Source: Podospora anserina (taxonomy: Eukaryota). From it: 64,000 nucleotides of DNA. The notes under the pieces were generated by a model. The model was not told the DNA's origin. It saw only the letters and a program-made list of their open reading frames with translations, and searched no databases. This document shows, one piece after another, positions 5,601 through 48,529 of the stretch (positions are counted from its first letter, which is position 1; each line of letters begins with the position of its first letter). The stretch lies in assembly GCA_017654855.1 (NCBI GenBank), contig CM030333.1:1674001-1738000 (forward strand). The letters run 5' to 3'. The position numbers and the translations under genes are program-made.

Positions 5601-8600
5601 ACCTGTCCACCACCCAACGTTCAACCCAACCTATCCTGGCGCCAAGCATCCGGCGAGGATCATATCATAGGCTAAGAGGCTCTTCCTTTTGGCATGCCCA
5701 CCAGGGCAGCAACCATTCCCCATTTGACGCTGGACCGGATCGCGGTTGACATTGGTTCTGGCGGGGGCACTTGGGGAGGCTTGGGGTGCACGCCGTCACT
5801 GTCACTAGCATCCCTCGGCGCACTCCTCGCTCTGTCTGATGATACCTGATACAGTAGCGTGCTGTTCCGATGTTGGGTGACCCCCATTGCCAGTTGAGTT
5901 TCAGGTGCTTCGTAACTGGGCCTTTGGGACTCGTGCCCAGCCCACACTGGCTGCAACGTCAACTATCGGTTGATGCGCTGATCTGATTTTTGTGATGGAG
6001 AAAGAAGAAGGTGAGGAGAACAAAGATGACGGCGGAGAGAACTGCCGGTTTCCCCTGAACCCCACGAAAGGCCGCGTTGCCGGACGACGACGGTGAGCGG
6101 ACGACTGGGATGTGAAGAGGCAGGTGTGCTTCCGAACCCCCCGTTTCCGTGCCTCGCCTCGGCGGTGTTCCCCTCATGAACCATCAGTTTGCATTATGTC
6201 ATTGCCCGATGCTGTGGAAAGCAAAACTCTCTCGCTAGTAACGGTGTCGAGCTTTCGAGCTTCCATGAACCTGGGAACAGCAAGAAGCCAAAGGAACTTT
6301 GATAGCTCCAGTTTCCACTTCGGTTTTCCCGGAGCGTCCGCCAGTCGGTGGAACTCCGGTTCAAAGGCACGTCTTGCGTCGGGTTAGCCAAAGAAGAAAA
6401 AAAAAAAAAGGCAAACGCCTCGCTCCGAAAGCTTGCAGCCATCATGAGCAGATCAGAAGCCAGCGTTAGCAGCGATACCGCAGTAATACCAACGTCGATG
6501 ACCCTCGTCTAAACACGTGGACCCAAGAACCTAGACATTACCCAGGATGACGCAGCACATCGCTTGGAAAGGTGAGCGCAACGACGGTGAGGGTGGAGAT
6601 GGGCACTCGGTGTCGTGCAGGACCCTGGTTCGATCGGGGGTTATCTTGTTGAATTGCTGCCCTCTGGTTGGATGAAACAACCGTTTTCTCGTGTCCATTT
6701 TTGGCTGCCCGTCCCTGCCGCTTCTTTGGTCCCTGTCCATTTGAATGTTTTCCCCTCATCACACACCCCTTCCCTTCCTCTTGCTGATGACCCTTTCTCC
6801 ATTCTCCAACTTTCTCAATCGTCAAAGTGGCTGTACACCTCGACGCTTACCGGTCACTTTCTTTGTTGTTCATGCTACTGCACTGCAGTACTAAATGATC
6901 TAAGCAGTTGTTGTCCCGAACATTGGCTCGGTAATGAATGGGGGGGCTAGGCAGCAAAGACTCCATTCTCTGGTTCTCTGGATGAACAGGCCAGGATCCG
7001 AACTTTGGGCTGCCTTTAGGTTGTTCCCGGCGCCAAGAAAACAGGGGACTTTTCTCGCCGGGTGCACCCATTCACCGCCTCATTTTTGGTGGTAGCAAAA
7101 CAGCAACAATCACCAAAGTCATTCATTCATCAAACGCCTCGGTTTTCCCTTTTGCGCTTCCCTCGGCCCCCTTGTCCGCTTCCACCGCGCCGTATGGGTA
7201 ACATCACAGAACTGCGACCGCGTGGCCCCATGGGTTCTTGATTCGGTAGGTATCTGCTCTTTGCTTGCTTTGAAAGCTCATTTCATTGTCCGAGGGCAAC
7301 AACAGCATCGAAAGATGTTTGCTTCCTTCCTGATGCTCGAATCCCAATTCCCAACTTTTTTTGTGGTGGATGGCTTTTCTTGTTTGGGGATAGCGCTGTT
7401 TCTAAATAAAAAGTTAACCTTTTTTTCCTTCTTTCCCTCTTCCGGCAGACGTCTCCACACTGACGTTCTTTGCTTGCCACATTCGGCCGAGCTGTGGTCC
7501 GCTCGTCCAATGACATTGACGGCACGTAGATCCTCGCTACTAGCAGACGAAACGACACTGTAGAAGTAATAATTTTCTGGATAATACTTATCAATCTGTA
7601 CAACGTTCCATGCCTCTACAGTTATTCTTTTCTCTCTTGTTCTTTTATTTCCCAACGGAAAAGCCGAACATTTCGGTCTCCTTTTGCCTTGATGTAGCAC
7701 ACAGACACACACACAACTCAGCTAACAACTCACACCAGCTTCCACAATCGACGCCTTACCGCCGGCCTCCTCTATTTTTTTTCGGCTCCCGGCAGCACCG
7801 TGTGTCCAAACCCCCGGGGCACGCGCGGGGGGCTTGGCTAGGTACCTATTAGCTCACTCCGTCATCACGGGTAGTGTGTTGTCGTTTCTTATCAATCTAT
7901 TTGTTTTTAGTTGACCAGATCAGAACCAAAAAAAACCAAGGAAAAAGCTACTTCCCCAAACCCCCAACGGACTGGGCGATTGGCATCGCGGAATTATGGC
8001 CGCCTCCTCCGATCCAGATTGCAACGGTTGGGGTGATCAGCCCGCATACATACTATAAGGACATTCCATGCGCGCTAATGACACTGGAGAGGTTGGAGAA
8101 AACCTCTGCTTTCTCCAAGTGATGAGGAAGTACCTAGCTGACCCCGCGTTGATAGCCGATTGTCCTCAGGCGGGCCGGCAATAACGTTTACGCGATGATC
8201 ACCTACTTACCCTACCCTACCATGATATGATCTGATAATTTATGGAGACCCTTTTACCCTCAGCTGTATGTGATCGTATGGATCTAGATGCTGAGTGGCT
8301 GTCTTTTTGCTCTTAACGCATGGGCGGAGGAGGATGGATCCAGCGGGGAGTCGGGTCATAGCTTGCAGGGCGTTGGCAGAGTAGGTAGGTAATTAATTCC
8401 CTTTTGTGTACCTTTCCTAACACAACTTGCAGCACCAATGAGAACAAGAGGCAGGATGTATGATCCCTGCTCCCTGTCGTCGGATCAAGGTTTCTGGTGA
8501 ACGTTGAAGAAAAGGGTAGTAGAGGAGGGAGATAAGCGAGGATGGGGGTAGTTTACACTGGGTAGGTACCTAACCCACTACTCGATCCTCGGTTTCTTTT

Positions 8601-33195: not shown

Positions 33196-35712
33196 TTTGT
33201 TTTTTTTTTGAGTAAACATGTATACTGCATCTTTTGGTGGTTTGTTGTTGCATTTTGAGATGCATTTTTCTTTTCTTTTTTTTTCTTTTCTTTTTTTTTT
33301 CTTTTCTTTTTTTTTTCTTTTTCTTTTTTCTTTCTTTTTTTTTTTGGAAATCTTTGGAATAGGATTACCCCCTTACTTAGAATATTGGGTTTGCATTAGG
33401 AGGATTTCCTTGAGTGCTTGTATGGAGGTTATCTGTTGCATTGTGTCCGGTTTTTGAACTTCCTTGGTTGTCTACTGCATCTCATCCGGTTTCATTTTTC
33501 TCCTGCTTTTTCCTAACCGCATGTTTGGTGTTGGCTGGCTCTTTGGCTCTTCGGGGTAAGGGATTCTCATCATCATCCCCGTTGTAATTGCATTGATCAT
33601 CATCATAGGAGGATACATTCATACAGGTTGATACCAGGTTGGCATTTTCTGATCTCCATACCTCCCGTGGTTTATTTCTTGGGGGTTCTTACATCTATCT
33701 ACATGTTTGCAAGATACTTTTTGCTTCGCAGCACAAAATACGAGATTCTGCAGTTTTTCCCCCTTAAGAACATGGATGTCTGTCGTATGAATTATATGTC
33801 TCAGCCCTCTGAGGGAATTATATGCCCGTGAAGAGGTCACCGAGTGTTACCTTTGCACCTGGCTTTTTGTACAAAACCATCGAGATCCCCCCCGCCCCCC
33901 CCTATATCTTCCGAAAAGCCACCCGGAATGATGAGTTGTGCAGTGCTACATGGGCTGAGAACAAGTGTGTGTATGTGATACAGAGGTCCGGGATCAGATG
34001 AAATCTTGAATGTCGAGCTTGGATCTTGATTTTTATCAGAATTTCAGATGAACGCGGTGGTGCTGTGTGTTTCCTTGGTTTTACGAGAGTGATTGTAACA
34101 TATAACTCGGCCATGCTATGATTACGAAGACATCCTTTTTCTCTCCTGGTGGGGGTGGGTCTGTGTGGTGTTGTGTGGTCACCACCAACTTGTTTTGAGT
34201 GTGTACCAAGGTGAGATGGGGCGGTTCACCGCGTGAAAGATGCTTACGACTTGCGATGACTTGTGACCTTTGAATGTGATACGGGATTGGAATGGGTGTT
34301 AGTAAGGGGAGGTGAGAGAGAGAGGGAGGCTTATCGTTATCATCGGGACTTGTTGGTCGTCGGCAGTGGTTGCATTTATTTTTATCGCGGCAGGCCGGCG
34401 GCGGCATTTGGCTGATCCCGGCATCCGATGGTGAGTTTGCTGGCCCCACTGCCCGCTGTCCTTGTCCTTGGTTCCCTGTCTGCGGGAACATCGCGCAAAC
34501 ATCGATGGGCCCGGGAACGGAGAGCATCGGCAAGGTCCACTCGAGGATGGCTTGGAAAAGGGTTCATGGGTTGATGATGATGATGTCAGGGCCACGTTGA
34601 AAGGGTTAGATATGGGCGATGCGGGGGGGAGGGACAGTGAGATATCGGACTATAGTCGGAGAGCCTATTACTGCTCTGTGATATGTGCCAACAAGACTGT
34701 GACACGGGGTCTGATAGAAGATGAGATGGGATGGCATCGATAGGTATCAGATGAAAGCGCCAATGCGCACTTGCCGAAGGAATATTCTTCAAGACATCGA
34801 TGGTCTGCGAGTTTGCGCAGCTGACAGGTTGGACAGGGAGCTCCGGGTCATTTGACGCTGATTGGTGCATTGAATCCCGACTGAGGTGGGTGTGGGTGTC
34901 TGTCAGACCAAGGAAAGCTCTTCTGCAAGGGTGGAGCGATGGGGCGCTGAGAGGCTGCGATTTGTTTATGTCTGAGACGATTGTTTATCTCGATTGGCCC
35001 AGCTGACGGCGGCGCTGTATCTTGCCTTGGAGGAGCTTGCTTTGGACCGCAGGCGGCGCGGCTTTCCTTTCCATGATCCATCGATTGAATCCTCATTCCT
35101 CTGCTGTTCTTCACGCTGTCGCTGTCACTGCTGCCCCACGGGTGCTTGCTTTCCACTACCGCAGTAGACGCTGTCTCGCAGCTAACCCCGCCGTCGCCGC
35201 TTCTCAGGGTCCCCCTAAACTGCAGCGGCCCGCCAGGCCAATCCATCCGTCCTTGCTGCTTTGCACAACGTCACTGCATCTCTCCTCCGGTCAGGAACTC
35301 CCGACGCTGCCGTTCCAGGCTCACGGCCGGCTTCACTTCTCGCCCTACTAGGTGCGCGAATTTGAATTTCTCTTCGAGTGGCAGAGGGTCAGGATGAGCT
35401 CATCAAGGTGAAAAGCGGTAAAAACCACAGGTGGGTTGCCCTGGTTTTTGTTTGTTGACTTTCCACCAAAATCGTCAGGCCCAGCTTGGGACATGCATCA
35501 CCCGATTGGATAGCTGCCAGCTCCGCTTCGATAGTTCAGTTACGAGTGGATGCTTGTTTTGGCCCATCTTCCGATCAACAAAATTTATTTCTGAATCGGC
35601 TCATGTCATGATCATTGGGGAAGACCTTGAGAGAATGCTGTCTCATCAGAGTCATAGCTGTTGTTGCTGCCATTGCTAACAAACACTCTTTCACCCCGAC
35701 AGAAGCGGAATC

Positions 35713-38700
35713 ATGACGCCGCCGGCCAAAGAAGAGGAAGAGGATCCCTCCAACACACCGATTGCTACAGCGGCGCGCCGCCATTCCACACCCGCCAAAC
35801 CAACAACCACGGCAAAGACACCAAAGAGCGCACCCGCTACCTCGAACAATGCATCGACACAGAAGAAAAAGCCGGAGCCCTCGCTGCTCACGGACTTCTT
35901 CCTGGGCCGCCCCTCACCAGCCCGCCTCGCCGCAATGAAACAGCGCCGGAAGAGTATGGCAGCCGACGCTGCGCATGTACGGGAAGAGTTGCGTCAGGAG
36001 ATGCGGGCCGCTGCTGTCCGGAGACTTCAACAACCCAATGGCGTAACAGACAGAGTGAAGGCCTGGCAGAAGAAGAACGCGGCCGCTATGAAGGAAGCAG
36101 GTGGACCGCCACGAGCCGAGAGCGTTGCGAGCGAACCGACCGAATTTGCTGCCAACCTCCCCCCTGAGAGCGTGACTGAAGAGGACCGAGAACGGATCAA
36201 GTGGCGGAAAAAGGCCAAGAAAAAGAAACCAAAAGACGACAAGATTGAGGTGATCGAAGACGACGACGACGACGACGATGATGATGATGATGGCGATGGC
36301 GAGGAGACAGAAAAGGAGCAACAGCCATCCGGGACCAAGGCTGGTCCATCGGCATCCAAACCGATCCCGGCCAAGGACGCGCCCAAAAAGCGGATTATTA
36401 GTGACGACCACTGGATGAAGCGTAGGCAGGGCAGGAGTCCGCCACGGACAGGTGCTCCGAGGACCAAAGCCGAAGGGAGCCCCACGCCAATTCCAAAGGA
36501 TTTCCTCCAAAAGACGGCAAAGAACCCAACAATTCAAAGCAAAATAAAGGACTGGGCAGCGAGGGTAGAGCCACCAGATCCCGGACAGGCTCCACCGCCA
36601 ATTCCTCGAGTGAAGCACTACCGCCATAAATCCGGGGCGACTATAGCAGTAGAAGAGGATATTGCCAGCATGGCCGCTTCAGAGCCATCATTCCGACCCA
36701 AATCCATGTCCTCATTCGACGACGGTATTCGAGTCAAGCCTTTGAACATAAAAAAGCAAACCAACGAAATCGACGACGGGATTCGTGTCTATCCACTTCG
36801 GAAAAAAAGGGACTCTGCCGATGAAGCGTCTCAACCGAAAAAGAAGGAGCCCGACGATGACGGGATACGTGTACGCCCAACAAAAAGCGACAATGAGGAG
36901 GGTGTGCGGGTGAAGCCAGCTGAAACCAAAAGCGAGTCATCTGCGCGTAGTAAAAAGAAGGAACCTGCGGACGACGGGATCCGTGTAACGCCTTCTGAGG
37001 GCAAGGAAGATGAGCCAAAGCGCACCAAGAAGAAGGATCTCGATGATGATGGGATCCGTGTGAGGCCGGTCACAGATGATGAGATGAAGCATCCCAAAAA
37101 GAAGGAACCCCCTAGCGTGGGAATGCGTCTGAAGCCGGCTGATAGCTTGAAACTGAAGCGCAAAAAGAAGAAGGCACCCGAAGACGACGGCATACGGGTG
37201 CGGCCGGTGGAGAGCAACGATGATGGCATCCGCGTAAAGCCCGTTGTCAGAGATTCATCGCACCCAGACGACGGCATCCGTGTTCAGCCGAGCGAACCAT
37301 CGTCCTCTGAGGCACCCATCCGTCGAAGCAGACCTTACTCTAGTTCTGCTGAAAAGTTAAAGAGAGCGCAAAGCAAGCGAAGAGAGGAAGCTCCTGAGGA
37401 TGTCATTGAGGTTATCGAAGAGGCTGAAACTGAGCTATCTGTCGAGCCGCCTCTGAAGAGGAAGAATTCCCTCCGAAACTCTAGGCGTAGAAAAAGCCAG
37501 AGTCCCCCAGCCGGCACCAAGGCTCGGTCTCGAAATGGACGAGACTCGCCGGAAGTGGTGCCCATTCCCACCTGGCCAACGGCAGAATCCGATGAGGAGT
37601 CAGACAGGGTGCCCCCGACTGTCCTTGGCAACAAGTCTTTGGCTGAGATTCCGTTCGGGTACTCGGCATTCAGCGTGCTCGATTTACCATCCAGTGGCAA
37701 TCCTGATAGGAGCATTCCCAAGAAGCCAAAGGCTCAGCGCAACCCCAGTTTCAAGGCGGTGCCAAAGGTGTTCAAGAAGGTTGTTGAAGGAGCCAAAGAG
37801 ATCATCCAAGAGAGCCTCGAGCCACCACGGCCACCGCCGGCGGCTAACAAACCGGCCAGCATAGAGTCCTGGCTGAACAACACGGTTGATCCTTTTGTCC
37901 AGGCTTCGCCAACAACAGAAACAGCAACGGTCGCCGATACACAAATCAGCAGCGAACCGCCCATAAGGGAATCGCGTGAGACACTGGAACCACCGGTAAA
38001 GCCCGAAAGTCGACCAGCTGCCGAGAAGCGGCCAAAGGAAGAAGGAAAGAAGGCGAAGGAAAAAGAGGCAGCAGCACCGGCCCCTACACCATCTTCGAAA
38101 AGGCCAAAGACCCCAAAGTCAGACAGTAGCAAGGGCAAGGCAAGCTCGCAGGGCGAAGACAGCGATGCGACAGCGAAAAAGACGAAATCACCGGTCAACC
38201 AGGAGGGTCTGAAGAGGAGGCGGGCCACCAGAGGAGCTCCAGTTCCTGCGAAATCTGGAGGGAAGAAGCCTCTCAGAGAAATCCTCAAAGATGCCTTCCG
38301 CGGTGAATCGGGCGGTTACAAGCTTCCCCCTGCAGTTTATCCCAGCTGTGAGGCTTCCGAGTACGACGATGAGTACTCTGAGTACACGGAATCAGAAGTC
38401 AGCACAGAGCGCCCTGGGTCTTCCCACAAAAGGCCTATCTCGGACTACTCGTCATATTACTCGTCTAACTACGACTCACTCTTGTCTTCGGACGTGTCTG
38501 CTCAGGAGCCACCACGCAGAAGACCCCCTCCCGTCAATGGCGGCGGGCATGAATTGTCAACTATCATTTCCGAAGAGGCTAGTACCGTGAGCGCGACGGA
38601 TACCATGTCCGAGATCTCTCACACCACCGTTACGCAACCCACAGCAACACCACTCACAGAAAGAACTGAGCTCTCTCGTCACCGAAGTCACAGGGGAAGC

Positions 38701-41700
38701 CGGAAGGGCGGGAGCTTGAAACGCCGCCTCACCAAACATTCGGACATGATATCAGTATTATCACTGCCTGACACGGGCGAAATCGTCCCGCCCAGTCGAT
38801 CAAGAAGCGTAAAGTCCTCCCGCAGCCTCCACCGCAGGCCAAGCAGGGTGGACAGGGGCAGGATTGACGAGCTCCTAGACGAGTTTGCCGACGATGAGTA
38901 CTTTTACCAGCGCGAGCTGAAGACCTTGGTGGACGGTGTGATTCCGGTGCTGTTGACACACGTCCTTCGCGGTGACAGCCTCTTTGGCCGTTCCGAGGCT
39001 GGCAGGAACAAGGCTGATGCCATGGCCAAGTCTGTGGTCAACATGGGTGTGGTGCTGGAGAAACTCAAGAGCTCCCATAAGCAGGTGCCGCTCGAGAACA
39101 TTTATCACCTCCTGACGTGGGTGGAGGATGTATCGCCGCTTTATGACAGTTATGTTGACGTTTGGCGGCTTGGGTTTCAGGGTCTTATTATCAACCTTGC
39201 GCCCAAATTGAAGGGCATGAATGATAATGATTCGCTCTTGAATGCGCTGCCCATCAATGAGGATGGTGATATTATTGGGGAGAATGGGGAGAGGGTGGAT
39301 GTGGCGTTTTTGTTGAAGAGGCCCCTGATTCGGCTCAAGTGGATGACAAAATTCCTTAGGGTAAGTTGATACTGCTATATAGCTCTGGTCCTTTCAATTG
39401 TGAGAGGTGGGTGGGGGCGAAACTTGTTACTGATGTTGCCATGTCTAGGCTGCTGTGCTTGTCGTTAATACGTCTGACACGGAGCATCTGCTCTCGGTAT
39501 TCGAGTCCCTCCAGGAAAAGGCTCGCAAGCGGCACCGAGAGGAGAATGCTCGTATCACGGACGAGGATGCAAGAAATACGGACACCACTCGTGCTCGAGA
39601 CCTGCGCACTCTGATGCCTCTTGATGGGGTGGGCATTGAGCAGACGCGCCAGGTCGCTGCGCTGGATGTGTTCGCGCTCGATCTGGACCATTCTACCGGG
39701 CAACGACTCGAGTGTCAAGTTGAGATGATTCATCGAGATAAGCCCGATGTTCCTGCCGATAAAGGAGATGTTTTGATCAGGGAGATTGGCAACGATTCTA
39801 GATCGTGGCTACTGTTCCCACCTGTGCCCATGGCGTACATTTCTGCTCGTCCTAGCGAGACGGACCAGGCTCTGGTGGTCATGATTCGTGGAACCCACAA
39901 TGGAGTGGAGTGGTATGAACTATTGAAGCTATCCACAAACAGTGAGGAGCAAATTACTTTTTGGCTGGATGTTCTGGGAAGCAGCCCCATGCCGCCACTC
40001 ACTCGCCGGCGGCCAACAAGTGCTGTCATGGGCAGCACTTCGCCCAAGCCAGAAGATATTCCAGTTGGCGAACGCAAGCTTGGGTCTGATAGACCTACCA
40101 CCCCTTCGCGTTACCGCCCACGAAAGGTGGTGGAGTCTCCTCCCACCTCTCCTGCTCATGATGATGCAGATGTGTCGCCTGGGCGGACACCTACCAGAGC
40201 CACATTTGCGCAGCATCACCCGCCGGAGGAGAGAGATGAAGCTCGCTGGGAGGGCCCGTCGTCCTACGACACCCCAAAAGCCTCGAGGCCGGCACCCAAC
40301 ACGACCCCCTTTCGCGAGGATGGCGCCCCTCCTCCGCCTATCCACCGGACTCTTAGCGAAAAGTCCAACAAGCTTGCTCCCCCGGTTGATCTCAAGGTCA
40401 CTGGGGTCAAGCGCCGAGGGTCGTCGCCGCTCAAGCACGAGTACCACCCGTCCGATGTGTCGTCTGACAGCTCGACCGAGGTGAGCGAGGATTCAGAGTC
40501 TTCGTCGTCTTCCAGCGATGAGCTTGATGAGGATGAGGTGCCGGACACGATCCCTGGGTACAGCATCAAGACCGCGCCGCAGGTCGCTTCCGTCGAGACG
40601 GTGGTGTCGGATGATAATAGTATCACGCCTGATCATTCCGCTTCGCAGGTCGGGGTTTCGAGCCAGGCGGCTGAGAAGCAAGAGGGGGAGGAGGGGCAGA
40701 AATTTGTGGCTTCTGTCTCGTATTGGTCTTCCAAGAAGGGGATGTGGAAGGATATTGTCAGCGGTGGCATGACGTCTATTGTTGTGCGTCCTGGTGTTAT
40801 GGAGGTTCACCGGCTGAGCAAGGAGCAATCCAAGGCTTATCCTCTGCAGTCGTCGGGTACTTCAGAGGTGGACATTTCCCACCAGGACGCTGGGAGCAGC
40901 GCCCCGCTTATCGCGCTGATTCTTACGCCGGTGGTTATGATCCGCCGCAGCACGGCGCTGGATCTGGAAGTCAGGAGTGTGGCTTCGCCCGAGTCGAGGC
41001 TCAAGACTGACAGCACGATGTATCGGTTCCGCGCTGGGACGCAGACGGAAGCGCACAGTTTGTATGAGGCGGTTCACTTGAGCAGGTTGAATAATGCTAG
41101 GTACATTCAGCTTGCCGAAGAGGCAAGAGTCAGATCGTTCGGCACGGCGACGGGGGTTCCCGGGGAGGGGAGTGCGGATGGGGACGGGAGCAGCAGGAGA
41201 CGGAGCTGGTTCGGGAGGAAGAATTCTTACCGGGCGAGCACGCGGGCGCCGAGCGTGTCGCAGCATAGCATGTCGAGCACCATCTCGGCGGGGAGCTTTT
41301 TGAGGAGGCTGCTGGGAGGGGGGAACAATACCTTTAATATTGAGGAGTCGACGTTGGATAAGCCGCCTAGGATGAGCACGGGCACTGTTGGGTACTCGTC
41401 TGGTGCTTCTTCCGGGGAGGGGGCGAGCACGCCGCCCAGGAGCGTCAACATGTCGTTGTCGGGGTCTGCCTCCCGGGCGTGGTCGACGGGGTTGGCGAAA
41501 CCTTTCAGTCCTGATCAGCCGTTGGAGATTCGCTGTCATCTTAATGTGCAGAATAATCGGTGGTTGGACAAGGGGGATTGCATCCTGCACATCTCGCGCC
41601 CGCCTCCGGGAGTCAGGCAGGAGCTTTCGCTTTATCACGGGTTGGAGAAGAGGATCATTGTTACGCATGCGAGCAAGAAGGTGGGGGATAAGCCGTTGAT

Positions 41701-41932
41701 ACTGCTGGATGCGGTGCTGGGGAGCAAGTGCTTCAGTCTTTTGGGGAGCAAGGGGGTGATGTGCTCTGTGTGGGAGGACTTGAGGGATGAGGAGGGGAAT
41801 GTGGGTGTTGCGCCGAGGATGGGGGGTTTGAGCGGACGGGTGACGAAGTGGTGTTTTCAGTGTAGGAATAGTCAGCAGGCGGATTGGATCATGTGGCTCG
41901 TCACGGCTGAGGTGGAGGGGTTGGTTGTTTAG
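35713..41932 (+). CDS. Large (~2043 aa) protein with disordered repeat-containing N-terminus, degenerate Dbl-homology (RhoGEF-like) region and probable PH-like domains, 2 exons
   Basis: Exon 1 35713-39360, intron 39361-39448 (GTAAGT..CTGAT..CTAG), exon 2 39449-41932, in frame. DH-like helices (IDELLDEFADDEYFYQRELKTLVDGVIPVLL ... FLLKRPLIRLKW) are followed by beta-rich segments. Confidence 0.85.
36718..37290 (+). repeat. Coding repeat: 10 copies of (D/E)DGIRVxP
   Basis: DDGIRVKP, DDGIRVYP, DDGIRVRP, EEGVRVKP, DDGIRVTP, DDGIRVRP, SVGMRLKP, DDGIRVRP, DDGIRVKP and DDGIRVQP in the translation, encoded with varying synonymous codons. Confidence 0.9.
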
Positions 41933-42824
41933 GGGGTGGCGGGCCCTTTTGCCTCTGGGGGTGGTAAAGGGAGTGCGAACAAGGAAAGGGGGAGTGTGGA
42001 TGGGGCGAGCTTGGGGAGGAGTAGTAGCAGTGGTGGGGGCGGTGGGAGCATAACGCTTGTGGGGAGTGGAGGGGGGAGTAGTGGTATTACCCTTGTTGGG
42101 AGTGGGGGTGGGAATAGTTTGGGGAGGAGGGTTAGTTTGAGCCGGAGTAGGAGTGGGAGTGGGAGTAACAAGGGGAGGGAGGTGTTGCTGATGGGGATGG
42201 AGAGGTTGAGGGGGGTTAATAGATGGAGTGTGAATTGGTGAAAGTTAATTACATATTATGGGGTGGGGGAGGGTTTACTTGTTTATAATCATGTTAATCG
42301 AAAGGGGGGGAGGAGGCATGCGCGCATGGTGGGTGTGTTTGGAGGGAGTTTATTACGGATTTTTGGGATACCCATACACAGGCAGTCATGAAAGCATTAG
42401 GAAGAGGGGGGGGCGGTCGGGGTTTCTCTGTTTAGTTTGATGGGCATTGCATGCGTGGCTTACATGAACATACCCGAAGTTTTTAAAAAGTTTTGGTTGT
42501 ATTTTGAGGGTTAAGTTTGCTAGATGTGAGATGGTTGTGATTGTGATTGGGCAAAGTATGGAAGGTAGTTGAGGTAGTCATGAAGTTGAGACGATGATCG
42601 AAGTGTTCAAAGTGTCTGAGGTACCTTTTATCGTCTCTCATATTCAGGACGAAAAAGGGACAAGGCACCGAACAGTTGAAGACAAATAATACCAAGATCT
42701 CACTTGCTCAACGAGAACTGATTAACCTGGTCAAAATTACCATCACACACCACACCATGGCTATTAATTACATTACATGACAGGGCATCTCTGTCTGCTT
42801 TTTCTGCATCTCAGTCCCCCCCCT

Positions 42825-44653
42825 TCACCACCAAATACTAGCCTTGCACATCCTCCCATCCGTCTGCTCATTCACCTTCCACCTCTCACTCCCCACCGCG
42901 TTCCTCGCGTAAAAGAACCCCTCGGGGTCATACCTCAGCTTGATGGCCATCAACCTCGCGTAATTGGTCCCAAAGAACTCCCTCTGGAACCTCGGCTGCT
43001 GGAAGTCGGCCTCGTTCATGTACGCGCCCGAGTTGGGGGTGATGCTCTCAATCGCGGGCATGATATCCTCGGTCATGAGCTTCTGGTTGGCAATCATGTC
43101 GTTCCACTTGGCAGGGTCAAAGCTCCAATCGGTAGTCAGAGTGGCGTGGACGAGCGTCTTTCTCCAGGCGGGGAGGACGGCGTTGGCCGAGTTGCGGCCA
43201 AAGGAGGAGACGTCGGTGCCGACGCCGATGAAGGTGACGCCCTTCTCGGCGATGTAGCGCGAGGTCTGGGAGAGCTTGGCGGGGGTCTTGGTGAAGGTGT
43301 CGCGGGGGATGAGGCGGCCGCCGTACTGGGCGATGCCGATCTGGATGGCGCCGATGGGGAGGGGGCCAAAGTATTGGTCGTAGTGGTCGTAGTAGTTGAC
43401 CGACTGGGAGTAGGCCGCGTTGAAGTTGACGCCGAGGGAGGTGAGGTTGGCGAGGAAGGGGGCCATGATGGTCTCGACTTGGGCGGCGGTCTTGTTGTAG
43501 GCGGTGACGGGGGCGATCATGAAGAAGTTGGAGGTGAAGTAGTAGACCACCATGGTGCCGGCGTCGACCATGGCGGGGAGGGCGGCGTGGAAGGCGTCGA
43601 TGCCCTTGTAGAAGGTCTCGGTGGGGTTGTTGGCGGCGAAGAAGGAGACGGTGGCACCGCCGACGTAGCTGTCGGGGAAGGTCTTGAGGGTGACGCTGAC
43701 GACGACGCCGTAGTTGCCAGGGCCACCACCGGAGAGAGCCCAGTAGAGGTCCGAGTTTCTGGTACGGGACGCGGTGAGGAGCTGGCCAGAGGCGGTGACG
43801 ACCTCCCACTCGAGGGTGTTATCGGCGGAGAGACCGAAAGATGTGCTCAGGGCGGAGTGACCACCACCCTGTGTATAGCCACCAGCAGGGCCAACAGTAG
43901 GACATTCACCACCGACAACGATCTGGTTGACCTTGAGGCCTTCGTTGAGGAGGTCAAAGCCTTGGACACCGGCTCCGATCTTGACGGCAGTACCCTTGTA
44001 GTACTTGTCATTGTAGTTCTTCCACTCAATGCTCTTCATCTTGTGGGTCCAGACAGACAGAGCACCGGCACCGGTAGACCGGGCAAGGTAGTCATGACCA
44101 GTGTTGCGGACGACGAAGCGGATGTTCTTTCTCCTGGCAAAGTTGATGGTAGCAATGATGTCCTGAGCAGTCTCAGCAGCGACTGCATATCTGACATAGT
44201 TGCCCAGTGTGCACGGCTTGCCCTGAGCAGTGAAGGGGTCACAGCTCTGGTTGGCAAAGAAAGGGGCCATGATGGAAGCCGAGTCATTCATGCTGCCAGG
44301 GGTGTCAGCAGCGTCAGCAGCACGGTGGTTGTTGGACGATCGACTTACTGAATGTCGGGCATCTGCCAGCCATCACGCAATTGTTGGCATCTGACGGGGT
44401 CGTAGTTGGGATCATGGCAGGCCTGGGCGAGTGGGACCGTGGCGATCAGCTTTCCACCGACGGTCTGGTTGAAGTTGTTCCACTCGTTGGTAGAGGGCCA
44501 GCACGAGTCGCCTGGGAAGCACTTGCACCGAGGGCCGAAGAGGAAGGATTCCAGAGAAAAGGTGGCCGAGTTGGGGTCCAGGCCGAGGATGCTGTCGTCC
44601 TGGGCCAAGGTGCCGGCAGCCAAGAGGCCAGCGGCAAGGAAGATGGACTTCAT
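42825..44653 (-). CDS. Secreted FAD-linked oxidoreductase, VAO/PCMH (berberine-bridge-enzyme-like) family, ~590 aa, 2 exons
   Basis: Signal peptide MKSIFLAAGLLAAGTLA and CKCFPGDSCWP in exon 1 (44653-44349). Exon 2 (44292-42825) has RNTGHDYL (FAD-binding His), GECPTVGPAGGYTQGGGHS and the BBE-type C-terminus GAYMNEAD...YDPEGFFY. Total 1773 nt. Confidence 0.95.
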
Positions 44654-47198: not shown

Positions 47199-48529
47199 AT
47201 GGGCTGGACATTCAACACCAGGGACCCGGATGCCCCTACCATTGGGCCGTTGATCACTGGAGTTTCAGCTGCTCTCACCTTTGTCTCTCTCGTGACGGTA
47301 TGTCTCCGGGTCTATGTGCGGGCTGCCATGATCAAAGCCTTCGGTGTCGGTAAGACTCCCACGCGAGATTTGGGTGTGTCGATATCGCCTCTAACCTAGT
47401 TGTCCACTCACAGATGACTACCTAATTCTCATCACTTGGGTGTGTGCGGCTGGCTTTGCCGTCGTCACCATTGTTCGTGAGTAACCTCGAAGAAGAAACA
47501 CCAAGCAGCGAAGAAGAAAAGAAAAGCACTAACATCTCGGCTGTCCAGAAACAAAATGGGGTCTTGGTCTACGGAACATTGATGACTTGCCCCCCGAAAA
47601 TATTTATAACTTTGGGCTTGTCAGTGTGCCACCATCAACCTAGCAAAGAAAATCATCATGAGGCTAACCGCCATCACCAACAGATTCAATACATGGGCGC
47701 ACCATTCTACATCAGCAGTATCTTGGGCTTCAAACTAGCCCTGCTGTTCTCCTACCTTCGCTTCATCCCCAAGGGTATCTACCGATACATGACCATTGGC
47801 GTCATCGTCGCCTGCTGTCTCTTCCACCTTTCTTTTCTCATCGTTCAGATCAACCTCTGCCAGCCAATCGCTTTACAATGGGACCCAACCATCACAGAAG
47901 GATCCTGCATCAAGGGAGTGCCCTTCTACACCAGCATGGCCTCCCTCACCATCGTCTTTGACGTTATTGTGTAAGGCCCTCTTCCCTCCAACCCAGCCTA
48001 GACCCGTCACTGACTGATTTTCCCCTGTAGTATGCTCACCCCCTTCCCCGTCCTCGTCAAATCCCGCATCCAAAACCGCAAAAAGCTCGTCCTCCTCGGC
48101 CTCTTTGGTCTCGGCCTCTTCATCACCGTCATCCAAATCATCCGCATCCAAACCGTCAAGCAACTGGCCAACTACCTCGACTCGGCCCCGTTGATCCTCT
48201 GGTCCGCCGTGGAAAACAATCTCGGTATCATCGTCGCCAACGTGCCCACCCTCGCCCCGCTGGTCAAGTACTACAATGAGAAATCCACCGGTGGAGGAAG
48301 TGGTCTCCGCTCCAAGAAGACTGGTTACGCCTCCCAGGACGTCGGCTCGAGATATGCGATGAGGACGTGGAAGAGCAACAGGTCCAAGGCGTTGGAATTG
48401 GGCAGTGTGCATGATGCTACGGACGGGAGTTTTGAGGGGCATGTGATGAAGGGGAATACCAGCACCGAGATGATTTTGGATCATGAGGGGATTACGAAGA
48501 AGGTGGAGGTTGTTATTACTCGCAACTAG
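47199..48529 (+). CDS. Pth11-like (fungal rhodopsin-domain, 7-TM) integral membrane protein without CFEM domain, ~356 aa, 5 exons
   Basis: Exons 47199-47349, 47414-47476, 47549-47619, 47684-47970 and 48031-48529 total 1071 nt. Family motifs LRVYVR, GVDDYL, WGLG, KLALLFSYLR, CQPIALQWD, DVIVMLTPFP and WSAVENNLGIIVANVPTLAPL. Confidence 0.9.

What the first reader, a model, noticed from the sequence alone, without database searches (positions are those of the whole stretch)
41909..42241. DH/PH-like gene continues 102 codons past its UAG: second stop-loss editing candidate
Seen: GTT TAG GGG GTG (A at 41931, context UUUAGGG). The frame stays open to TGA at 42239-42241 and encodes GVAGPFASGGGKGSANKERGSVDG...SITLVGSGGGSSGITLVGSGGG...LLMGMERLRGVNRWSVNW, with an internal ITLVGSGGG duplication and a distinctive non-repetitive end. 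GAGGTGGAGGGG (41909-41920) can pair with CCCTTTTGCCTC (41944-41955; 12 bp including 4 G-U), placing the UAG in the loop region. Caveat: G-rich sequence is naturally poor in stop codons.
Basis: partly seen in the sequence, partly recalled or inferred. Interest (0 to 1): 0.7.

Follow-up and report, generated by a model that had tools for sequence, protein, structure and literature searches.

The report
Hidden tail behind a fungal stop
A large, uncharacterised Podospora gene ends in a stop codon that sits in an RNA hairpin loop and is followed by 102 codons that look and evolve like protein-coding sequence, which fits a known fruiting-stage RNA edit that lengthens proteins, although the edit itself was not seen.

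Summary
The TAG at 41930-41932 is the ordinary stop of PODANS_2_3700 (2043 aa; DH and PH-like domains); 112 of 120 homologues end there. The 102 codons behind it are not a G-richness artefact: 0 stops in frame, 15 in the other frames (shuffle P=0.002), with a coding score above all 81 background gene ends. An internal duplication differs mostly at third positions (10 of 14). A Triangularia verruculosa gene model carries the same tail in one frame (56% identity, same SVNW end). All 7 non-Chaetomiaceae lineages examined end in TAG; 5 have a significant stop-enclosing hairpin with unrelated 3' arms, against 0 of 8 Chaetomiaceae loci. The genome has an Ame1-like editing cofactor, and the Neurospora orthologue's mRNA is edited at 17 coding sites. 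Against: no edited RNA was seen, RNA contigs stop at 41973 or earlier, tail motifs are not kept beyond close relatives, and one relative's tail evolves neutrally. Best reading: stop-loss A-to-I editing as in FgDBF2 (0.62), a new member of a known kind. This scan noted similar candidates at other genes of this genome, not at this one.

The parts
35431..35702 (+). Intron in the 5' UTR of the gene
   Evidence: Joint 35426-35699, GT..AG read with the cut 4 places to the right, in 4 of 4 RNA assemblies
35713..39360 (+). Coding exon 1: long low-complexity N-terminus, then DH_2 domain (about 38857-39360)
   Evidence: Pfam PF24340, E 1.6e-66; joined CDS is identical to PODANS_2_3700, 2043 aa
39361..39448 (+). 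Intron
   Evidence: Joint in 4 of 4 RNA assemblies
39449..41932 (+). Coding exon 2: PH_23 (about 39575-39997), PH_24/EVH1-like (about 40673-41128), and a conserved C-terminal domain (41480-41929) that may be PH/RanBD-like
   Evidence: Pfam PF24344 and PF24345. C-terminal domain: no Pfam hit; ESM Atlas feature score 0.91 to Ran_BP1 clusters, a lead only
41909..41955 (+). RNA hairpin, 14+3 bp, 11-nt loop (41927-41937) holding the UAG
   Evidence: -23.4 kcal/mol at +-30 nt; own 3' arm ranks 1 of 15, shuffle P=0.008
41930..41932 (+). Canonical TAG stop; A41931 is the candidate editing site (TTAGGG, 5 of 6 letters of the preferred TTAGGA motif)
   Evidence: 112 of 120 homologues end at this position; motif from PMC13431901
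41933..42241 (+). 102-codon in-frame tail (29 Gly, 21 Ser, 10 Arg, net charge +9) and second stop TGA at 42239-42241
   Evidence: homologous to the last 88 residues of T. verruculosa model P0006
42027..42118 (+). 36-nt-period duplication encoding ITLVGSGGG twice
   Evidence: 10 of 14 mismatches at codon position 3 (P=0.004); 5 of 5 synonymous in the 9-codon core. Both TLVGSG copies are present in P0006
42164..42241 (+). Non-repetitive end of the tail (KGRE...SVNW stop), shared with T. verruculosa
   Evidence: Score 49 for the last 25 residues, reached by 0 of 5000 shuffles
42368..42373 (+). Conserved sense-strand 3' UTR motif ATACCC, downstream of the second stop
   Evidence: Found in 14 of 14 loci tested against 14 of 81 background gene ends

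Best explanation
The TAG is the normal stop, and vegetative cells make the 2043-aa protein. During fruiting-body development the Tad2-Tad3-Ame1 deaminase edits A41931 in the hairpin loop (UAG to UIG, read as Trp) in part of the mRNA. This gives a 2146-aa isoform with a 103-residue Gly/Ser/Arg-rich, probably disordered tail. By analogy with FgDBF2 the tail most likely lowers the protein's level; its conserved TLVGSG repeats and end may add a specific signal. Shown here: stop position, coding-like tail, synonymous-biased duplication, a homologous tail in one relative, hairpins in several lineages, an Ame1-like gene. Inferred: the edit, its stage, translation of the tail and its function. TAG plus hairpin looks ancestral in Sordariales and lost in Chaetomiaceae, with each lineage carrying a different tail.
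For: Frame: 0 in-frame against 15 out-of-frame stops, P=0.0018. Three-base periodicity chi2 60.6 in phase with the CDS, against 4.9 in the next 306 nt. Coding score 21.0 (upstream CDS 24.8; other frames -38 and -25; next 306 nt -36), reached by 0 of 81 background ends. Duplication: 10 of 14 mismatches at third positions, with boundaries set on DNA alone. P0006 leaves the canonical C-terminus after WIM and ends in the same tail in one frame across 4 internal indels, 56% identity, score 159 against a shuffle maximum of 106; invented introns over edited stops are a known artefact (PMC4817773). Hairpin: own 3' arm ranks first of 15 with P at most 0.03 in 5 of 7 non-Chaetomiaceae lineages, all 7 TAG; 0 of 8 Chaetomiaceae loci. 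One of 3 DUF726 loci has MV where a paralogue has the ancestral KN. N. crassa orthologue NCU03685 has 17 edited coding sites in perithecia, 12-73%.
Against: No edited RNA seen: contigs of X1 and X4 cover the TAG with no other letter, and no run shows any A>G in 10 kb. Contigs of two studies stop at 41973 with no loose end, a weak hint of a shorter 3' end. The tail is less conserved (56%) than any 100-aa block of the canonical protein (68-99%). A neutral simulation gives such identity at 0.2-0.3 substitutions per site with a 20-34% chance of staying stop-free, indels not modelled. P0006 is a protein model only: its stop codon and the phase of its tail are unseen. In L004 against L010 the tail has 5 missense, 1 nonsense and 1 synonymous change, while their CDS has 7 synonymous and 0 nonsynonymous. 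The hairpin contrast is one phylogenetic event. Li and Zhang argue stop-loss editing is mostly non-adaptive (PMC13684035).
Confidence: 0.62

Rival explanations
1. The tail is G-rich, repeat-derived 3' UTR. Slippage of 3- and 6-nt units gives periodicity and keeps stops in one frame. [quoted passage not shown]
For: 5 of 81 background ends have tails of 102 or more codons, and TAG ends are not significantly longer than others (P=0.08). The tail is rich in GGG/AGT codons. Identity to P0006 is compatible with low neutral divergence. The L004/L010 tail evolves neutrally. PMC13684035.
Against: Third-position bias in the duplication, including Ile, Thr and Val codons outside the simple repeats. The non-repetitive last 25 residues and the stop position are shared with P0006. 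Hairpins are built from unrelated 3' arms in separate lineages.
Confidence: 0.2
2. Most mRNA ends near 41973, so the tail is not on the transcript, or only on a rare long isoform. An edit would then give a non-stop mRNA rather than a longer protein.
For: Contigs of X1 and X4 (two studies) both end at 41973 with no loose end, while 6 holders of unrecorded kind, taken to be DNA, hold all sampled words of 39500-42400. This is a weak hint only; no DNA run was laid.
Against: X11 and X13 stop inside the CDS (41758, 41717), so G-rich RNA drops out here anyway. The tail is 53% G with strong G-quadruplex potential. A+T-rich sequence begins only after 42220, and the conserved ATACCC motif lies at 42368. 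The downstream FAD-oxidase neighbour is not seen in L002-L020 (up to 1.5 kb of flank), so the motif is unlikely to be its.
Confidence: 0.07
3. The tail is translated by ribosomal read-through of the UAG, with no RNA editing.
For: It explains the coding-like tail equally well, and no edit was seen.
Against: The stop lies inside a hairpin loop, the geometry preferred by fungal editing (PMC11156358; PMC4817773). UAG-G is not a known leaky context (recalled, not tested).
Confidence: 0.06
4. A real alternative intron removes the stop and joins the CDS to the tail, as models P0006 and the old N. crassa model P0135 suggest.
For: Two gene models skip the stop.
Against: None of the 8 GT sites in the 70 nt before the stop reads like a consensus donor, and the in-frame acceptors at 41932, 41983 and 42172 have no branch site. 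X1 and X4 run unspliced to 41973 and no joint is listed there.
Confidence: 0.05

Closest known systems
Stop-loss A-to-I editing of FgDBF2 and 403 F. graminearum genes (Du et al. 2026, PMC13123824; abstract, two results sections and Dataset S1 read)
   Same: Canonical TAG in a hairpin loop, TAG bias across relatives, a conserved pre-stop region, and a low-complexity tail conserved only among close relatives.
   Different: Editing and destabilisation are shown for DBF2, not here. TAG is lost in Chaetomiaceae for this gene, whereas DBF2 has TAG in 94% of Sordariomycetes. This tail shows residue-level constraint on a duplicated motif.
Stop-loss extensions with peptide evidence in Sordaria macrospora, e.g. 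white collar 1 plus 131 aa (PMC6794485; passages read, supplements searched)
   Same: Sordariales gene with a long tail behind a UAG.
   Different: SMAC_02548, the orthologue, was not found in the searchable supplements, and there is no peptide evidence here.
PSC (premature stop correction) editing, e.g. PUK1 (PMC4817773, PMC11156358; passages read)
   Same: UAG to UGG, and gene predictors invent an intron over the stop (as in P0006).
   Different: Here the stop is canonical: 112 of 120 homologues end at it and none continues through it into a shared domain, so this is not a PSC gene.

Membership tests
Fungal stop-loss A-to-I editing site | UAG is the canonical stop (homologues end there) | tested here: met
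   112 of 120 homologues end 25-29 residues after the WCFQ motif, as here (7 of them counted by eye because the anchor slipped)
Fungal stop-loss A-to-I editing site | A>G in sexual-stage mRNA at the stop | tested here: inconclusive
   No A>G in 4 RNA assemblies of unknown stage, none with edits elsewhere in 10 kb; only 2 cover the stop; contigs drop minor variants
Fungal stop-loss A-to-I editing site | Preferred context: U at -1, purine at +1 and +3, stable hairpin loop | tested here: met
   TTAGGG; -23.4 kcal/mol, A unpaired 0.99 at +-30 nt; preferences from PMC11156358, PMC4817773 and PMC13431901
Fungal stop-loss A-to-I editing site | Open in-frame tail carried on the mRNA | tested here: inconclusive
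   Frame open; RNA contigs do not cover 41974 to about 42240; conserved UTR motif lies beyond the tail
Fungal stop-loss A-to-I editing site | Editing machinery (Tad2-Tad3-Ame1) in the genome | tested here: met
   11 matches to deaminase family PF00383, Tad2 and Tad3 not singled out; 3 DUF726 loci, one with MV 30 and 29 residues before the catalytic Ser (31 and 30 in the paper's numbering) where a paralogue has KN
Fungal stop-loss A-to-I editing site | Restriction to the sexual stage | not testable with these tools
   Run descriptions are not given
DBF2-type degron tail | Tail lowers protein level when fused to a reporter | not testable with these tools
   Needs an experiment; composition is Gly/Ser/Arg-rich
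PSC pseudogene | Homologues read through the position into a conserved domain | tested here: not met
   Homologues stop here; the tail has no Pfam match and no other relative among 50% cluster representatives

The most novel reading that the evidence does not exclude
An ancestral edited stop (TAG in a hairpin) has been kept across Sordariales, lost once in Chaetomiaceae, and used as a platform on which each lineage built its own tail from 3' UTR. In the Podospora-Triangularia clade that tail has become true coding sequence: a duplicated TLVGSG motif and a fixed basic SVNW end under purifying selection, acting as a specific localisation or binding signal for a fruiting-stage isoform rather than a generic degron. 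That would be de novo birth of a protein module gated by RNA editing, and a clean test case in the debate on whether stop-loss editing is adaptive.
Probability: 0.2. Interest if true: 0.6.

Novelty: new member of a known kind. Interest (0 to 1): 0.38.

Why it matters
Hundreds of stop-loss edits are known in Fusarium and Neurospora, so one more site is not surprising. The value lies in the quality of this candidate. Whether such edits are adaptive is disputed (PMC13123824 against PMC13684035). This gene offers sequence-level signs of selection on both the hairpin and the tail, plus a natural loss in Chaetomiaceae. It would also correct the T. verruculosa gene model and give a first handle on an uncharacterised DH/PH protein conserved across Sordariomycetes.

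Tried and rejected
RNA: no holder was on record as RNA; 14 holders guessed to be RNA hold 0.79-0.88 of the words. Four were laid. They are spliced and show no other letters. The listed contigs leave 41974 onward without cover; X1's next contig starts near 42240, worked out from bin depths and not listed. A hole proves nothing. Searches for the tail as a protein found only its own ORF and P0151, P0151 plus a hit to the canonical end, nothing among 511-1628-aa proteins, and a single copy in the own genome. P0151 is the tail after complete C-to-T conversion (99 of 99 residues), so it is an artefact and not a relative. Editing lists: SMAC_02548 and NCU03685 were not found in supplements of PMC5381528 (one file, about 4.0 million characters, possibly cut) or PMC6794485 (file 9 unreadable). 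In PMC13431901 Data S1 the expected stop position was absent. That file is cut, and NCU09071 (recalled as N. crassa dbf-2) shows no stop row either, so the blank is uninformative. The N. crassa editing paper of 2017 was not held; bioRxiv supplements were closed and may bear on this. Gene ids gave 0 papers; Podospora plus editing terms gave no report of this site. Both AlphaFold models were unusable (mean pLDDT 32 and 35). A first background run kept only 19 gene ends and was replaced (by 65). The neighbour test used a wrong frame and was redone. PSC status was rejected.

Full report
Observation. The window reads GTT TAG GGG at 41927-41935, with 102 open codons to TGA at 42239-42241. The tail has no stop in frame but 15 stop triplets in the two other frames; 0.18% of 20000 dinucleotide shuffles leave the frame open. 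Base use by codon position matches the upstream CDS (A at position 3: 5% against 2%), with periodicity chi2 60.6; the next 306 nt give 4.9. It dominates in 7 of the 8 window sizes that hold it whole but not at +-40 nt, and the 41890-41970 fold is not unusually stable overall (z -0.98).

The gene. Two coding exons (35713-39360, 39449-41932) give a 2043-aa protein identical to PODANS_2_3700. Both that intron and a 5' UTR intron are seen in 4 of 4 RNA assemblies. Pfam finds DH_2, PH_23 and PH_24. The last 150 residues have no Pfam hit and only a feature-level lead to RanBP1-type PH folds. Of the 120 best of 296 homologues, 112 end 25-29 residues after the WCFQ motif, as here. Six end 32-43 residues after it, one is a fusion with a SAP-domain gene, and one (P0006) is discussed below. 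The TAG is therefore the canonical stop, not a premature one.

Background. From 75 spaced 10-kb stretches of the same genome plus the window I drew 81 crude gene ends (no annotation; some are antisense shadows or internal exons). Five have in-frame tails of 102 or more codons, so length alone is not decisive, and TAG ends were not significantly longer than others (P=0.08). None of 81 reached this tail's coding score (21.0; upstream CDS 24.8). None had the stop in a hairpin loop at -20 kcal/mol or lower, although 32 of 81 had it in some loop.

Selection on the tail. The 36-nt-period duplication, bounded on DNA alone (42027-42082 against 42063-42118), has 14 mismatches, 10 at codon position 3 of the TAG frame (P=0.004). 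Other boundaries give P 0.004-0.058, and the ITLVGSGGG core has 5 of 5 synonymous. The T. verruculosa model P0006 leaves the canonical C-terminus after WIM and ends in 88 residues that align with this tail. Identity is 56%, both TLVGSG copies and the terminal SVNW are kept, and 4 internal indels stay in one frame. The score is 159 against a maximum of 106 in 5000 shuffles; the other frames score 32 and 28. I infer an invented intron over the stop, an artefact described for edited stops (PMC4817773, passages). Limits: no DNA of that species was available, so its stop codon and phase are unseen. The tail is less conserved than any 100-aa block of the canonical protein (68-99%). A neutral simulation reaches 53-64% identity at 0.2-0.3 substitutions per site with a 20-34% chance of no stop, indels not modelled.

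Wider relatives. Nineteen metagenome loci end at the same place: 13 TAG, 3 TAA, 3 TGA, with tails of 0-89 codons, none resembling this one. After dropping 5 near-duplicates, a tree puts all 6 TAA/TGA loci and 2 TAG loci in the Chaetomiaceae clade (support 0.84). The window and the 6 other loci lie outside it and all have TAG (L017 stood in for L016). In 5 of those 7 the own 3' arm pairs with the coding 5' arm better than any of 14 foreign arms and better than shuffles (P 0.002-0.03); L006 ranks 2 (P 0.14) and L003 ranks 6 (P 0.23). The 8 Chaetomiaceae loci rank 9-15 (P 0.28-0.95). The 3' arms are unrelated in sequence, so pairing seems to be what is kept, but the contrast rests on one loss. 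Against function in every lineage, near-identical L004 and L010 differ in the tail by 5 missense, 1 nonsense (codon 45) and 1 synonymous change, and in the CDS by 7 synonymous and 0 nonsynonymous.

Is it on the mRNA and edited? Not shown. Contigs of X1 and X4 cover the TAG unedited and end at 41973; X11 and X13 end inside the CDS. No run shows any A>G in 10 kb, so they may all be vegetative, and contigs drop minor variants. The shared end is a weak hint of a short isoform. The early ends in the CDS, the G-quadruplex potential, the A+T rise only after 42220, and a sense motif ATACCC behind the stop in 14 of 14 loci (42368 here) favour a long UTR with technical drop-out.

Machinery and context. 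The genome has three DUF726 loci. One has MV where a paralogue has KN, one residue off the spacing given for F. graminearum Ame1 (bioRxiv 10.1101/2023.10.18.562923, passages and section 16). The N. crassa orthologue has 17 edited coding sites in perithecia (PMC13431901 Data S1), so its mRNA meets the editor; the stored file could not show its stop. The context TTAGGG matches 5 of 6 letters of the preferred TTAGGA. A preprint on P. anserina sexual transcriptomes mentions ADAT genes but showed no site list in the passages seen (10.1101/2024.12.09.627484). Unchecked notes of this scan report edited stops in RNA of this genome.

Mechanism. Most likely (0.62): perithecial A-to-I editing turns UAG into a Trp codon and adds 103 residues. 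By analogy with FgDBF2 and six other tested tails (PMC13123824, sections 13 and 15) this probably lowers protein dose. Rivals: neutral UTR with incidental editing (0.20; PMC13684035, whole text), short mRNA (0.07), ribosomal read-through (0.06), a real stop-skipping intron (0.05; one search finds no consensus-like signals).

Comparison and novelty. It works like FgDBF2-type stop-loss editing and meets the sequence, structure and machinery criteria; the defining edit is untested. It fails the PSC test. F. graminearum has 403 such genes (Dataset S1, all three parts read), and S. macrospora has 47 stop-loss sites (PMC5381528, passages) and 15 with peptides (PMC6794485, passages). I found no report on this gene, within a library that lacks most subscription papers. 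Verdict: a good but unconfirmed new member of a known kind; interest 0.38.

Noticed in passing
window 42368-42373; L002-L020 at 174-424 nt after the stop: A sense-strand ATACCC (TATACCCAT-like) motif follows the stop in 14 of 14 loci of this gene family tested (one matched as TATACCA) against 14 of 81 background gene ends: a likely conserved 3' UTR element of unknown role.
   Followed up: partly
L025, minus strand, stop near 7977 (own genome, contig C1): Another gene end in TTAGGA context with a 106-codon, protein-like in-frame tail: a further stop-loss or PSC candidate.
   Followed up: no
window 48014-48529 +: ORF ends in TAG with a 64-codon in-frame tail that does not score as coding.
   Followed up: partly
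P0135 (old N. crassa model of NCU03685): Also leaves the canonical C-terminus just before the stop and ends in a different tail; it may hide a Neurospora-specific extension.
   Followed up: no
PMC13123824 Dataset S1, row FG2G07580: A stop-loss site at CDS position 5930 (25%) in an unnamed F. graminearum gene of about this family's length; identity with this family not tested.
   Followed up: no
P0151: A database protein that is this tail after full C-to-T conversion (99 of 99 residues), consistent with a bisulfite library being gene-called.
   Followed up: yes
window 42825 to about 44650, minus strand: Convergent neighbour: FAD-binding, BBE-type oxidoreductase with an RNA-confirmed intron at 44293-44348.
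   Followed up: partly
L096 (G000:C4, about 2292641-2293714): Probable Ame1 orthologue with the MV signature; L097 carries KN at the same place.
   Followed up: partly
window 36700-37300 +: The N-terminal half of the protein has about ten DDG[IV]RV-type repeats.
   Followed up: no
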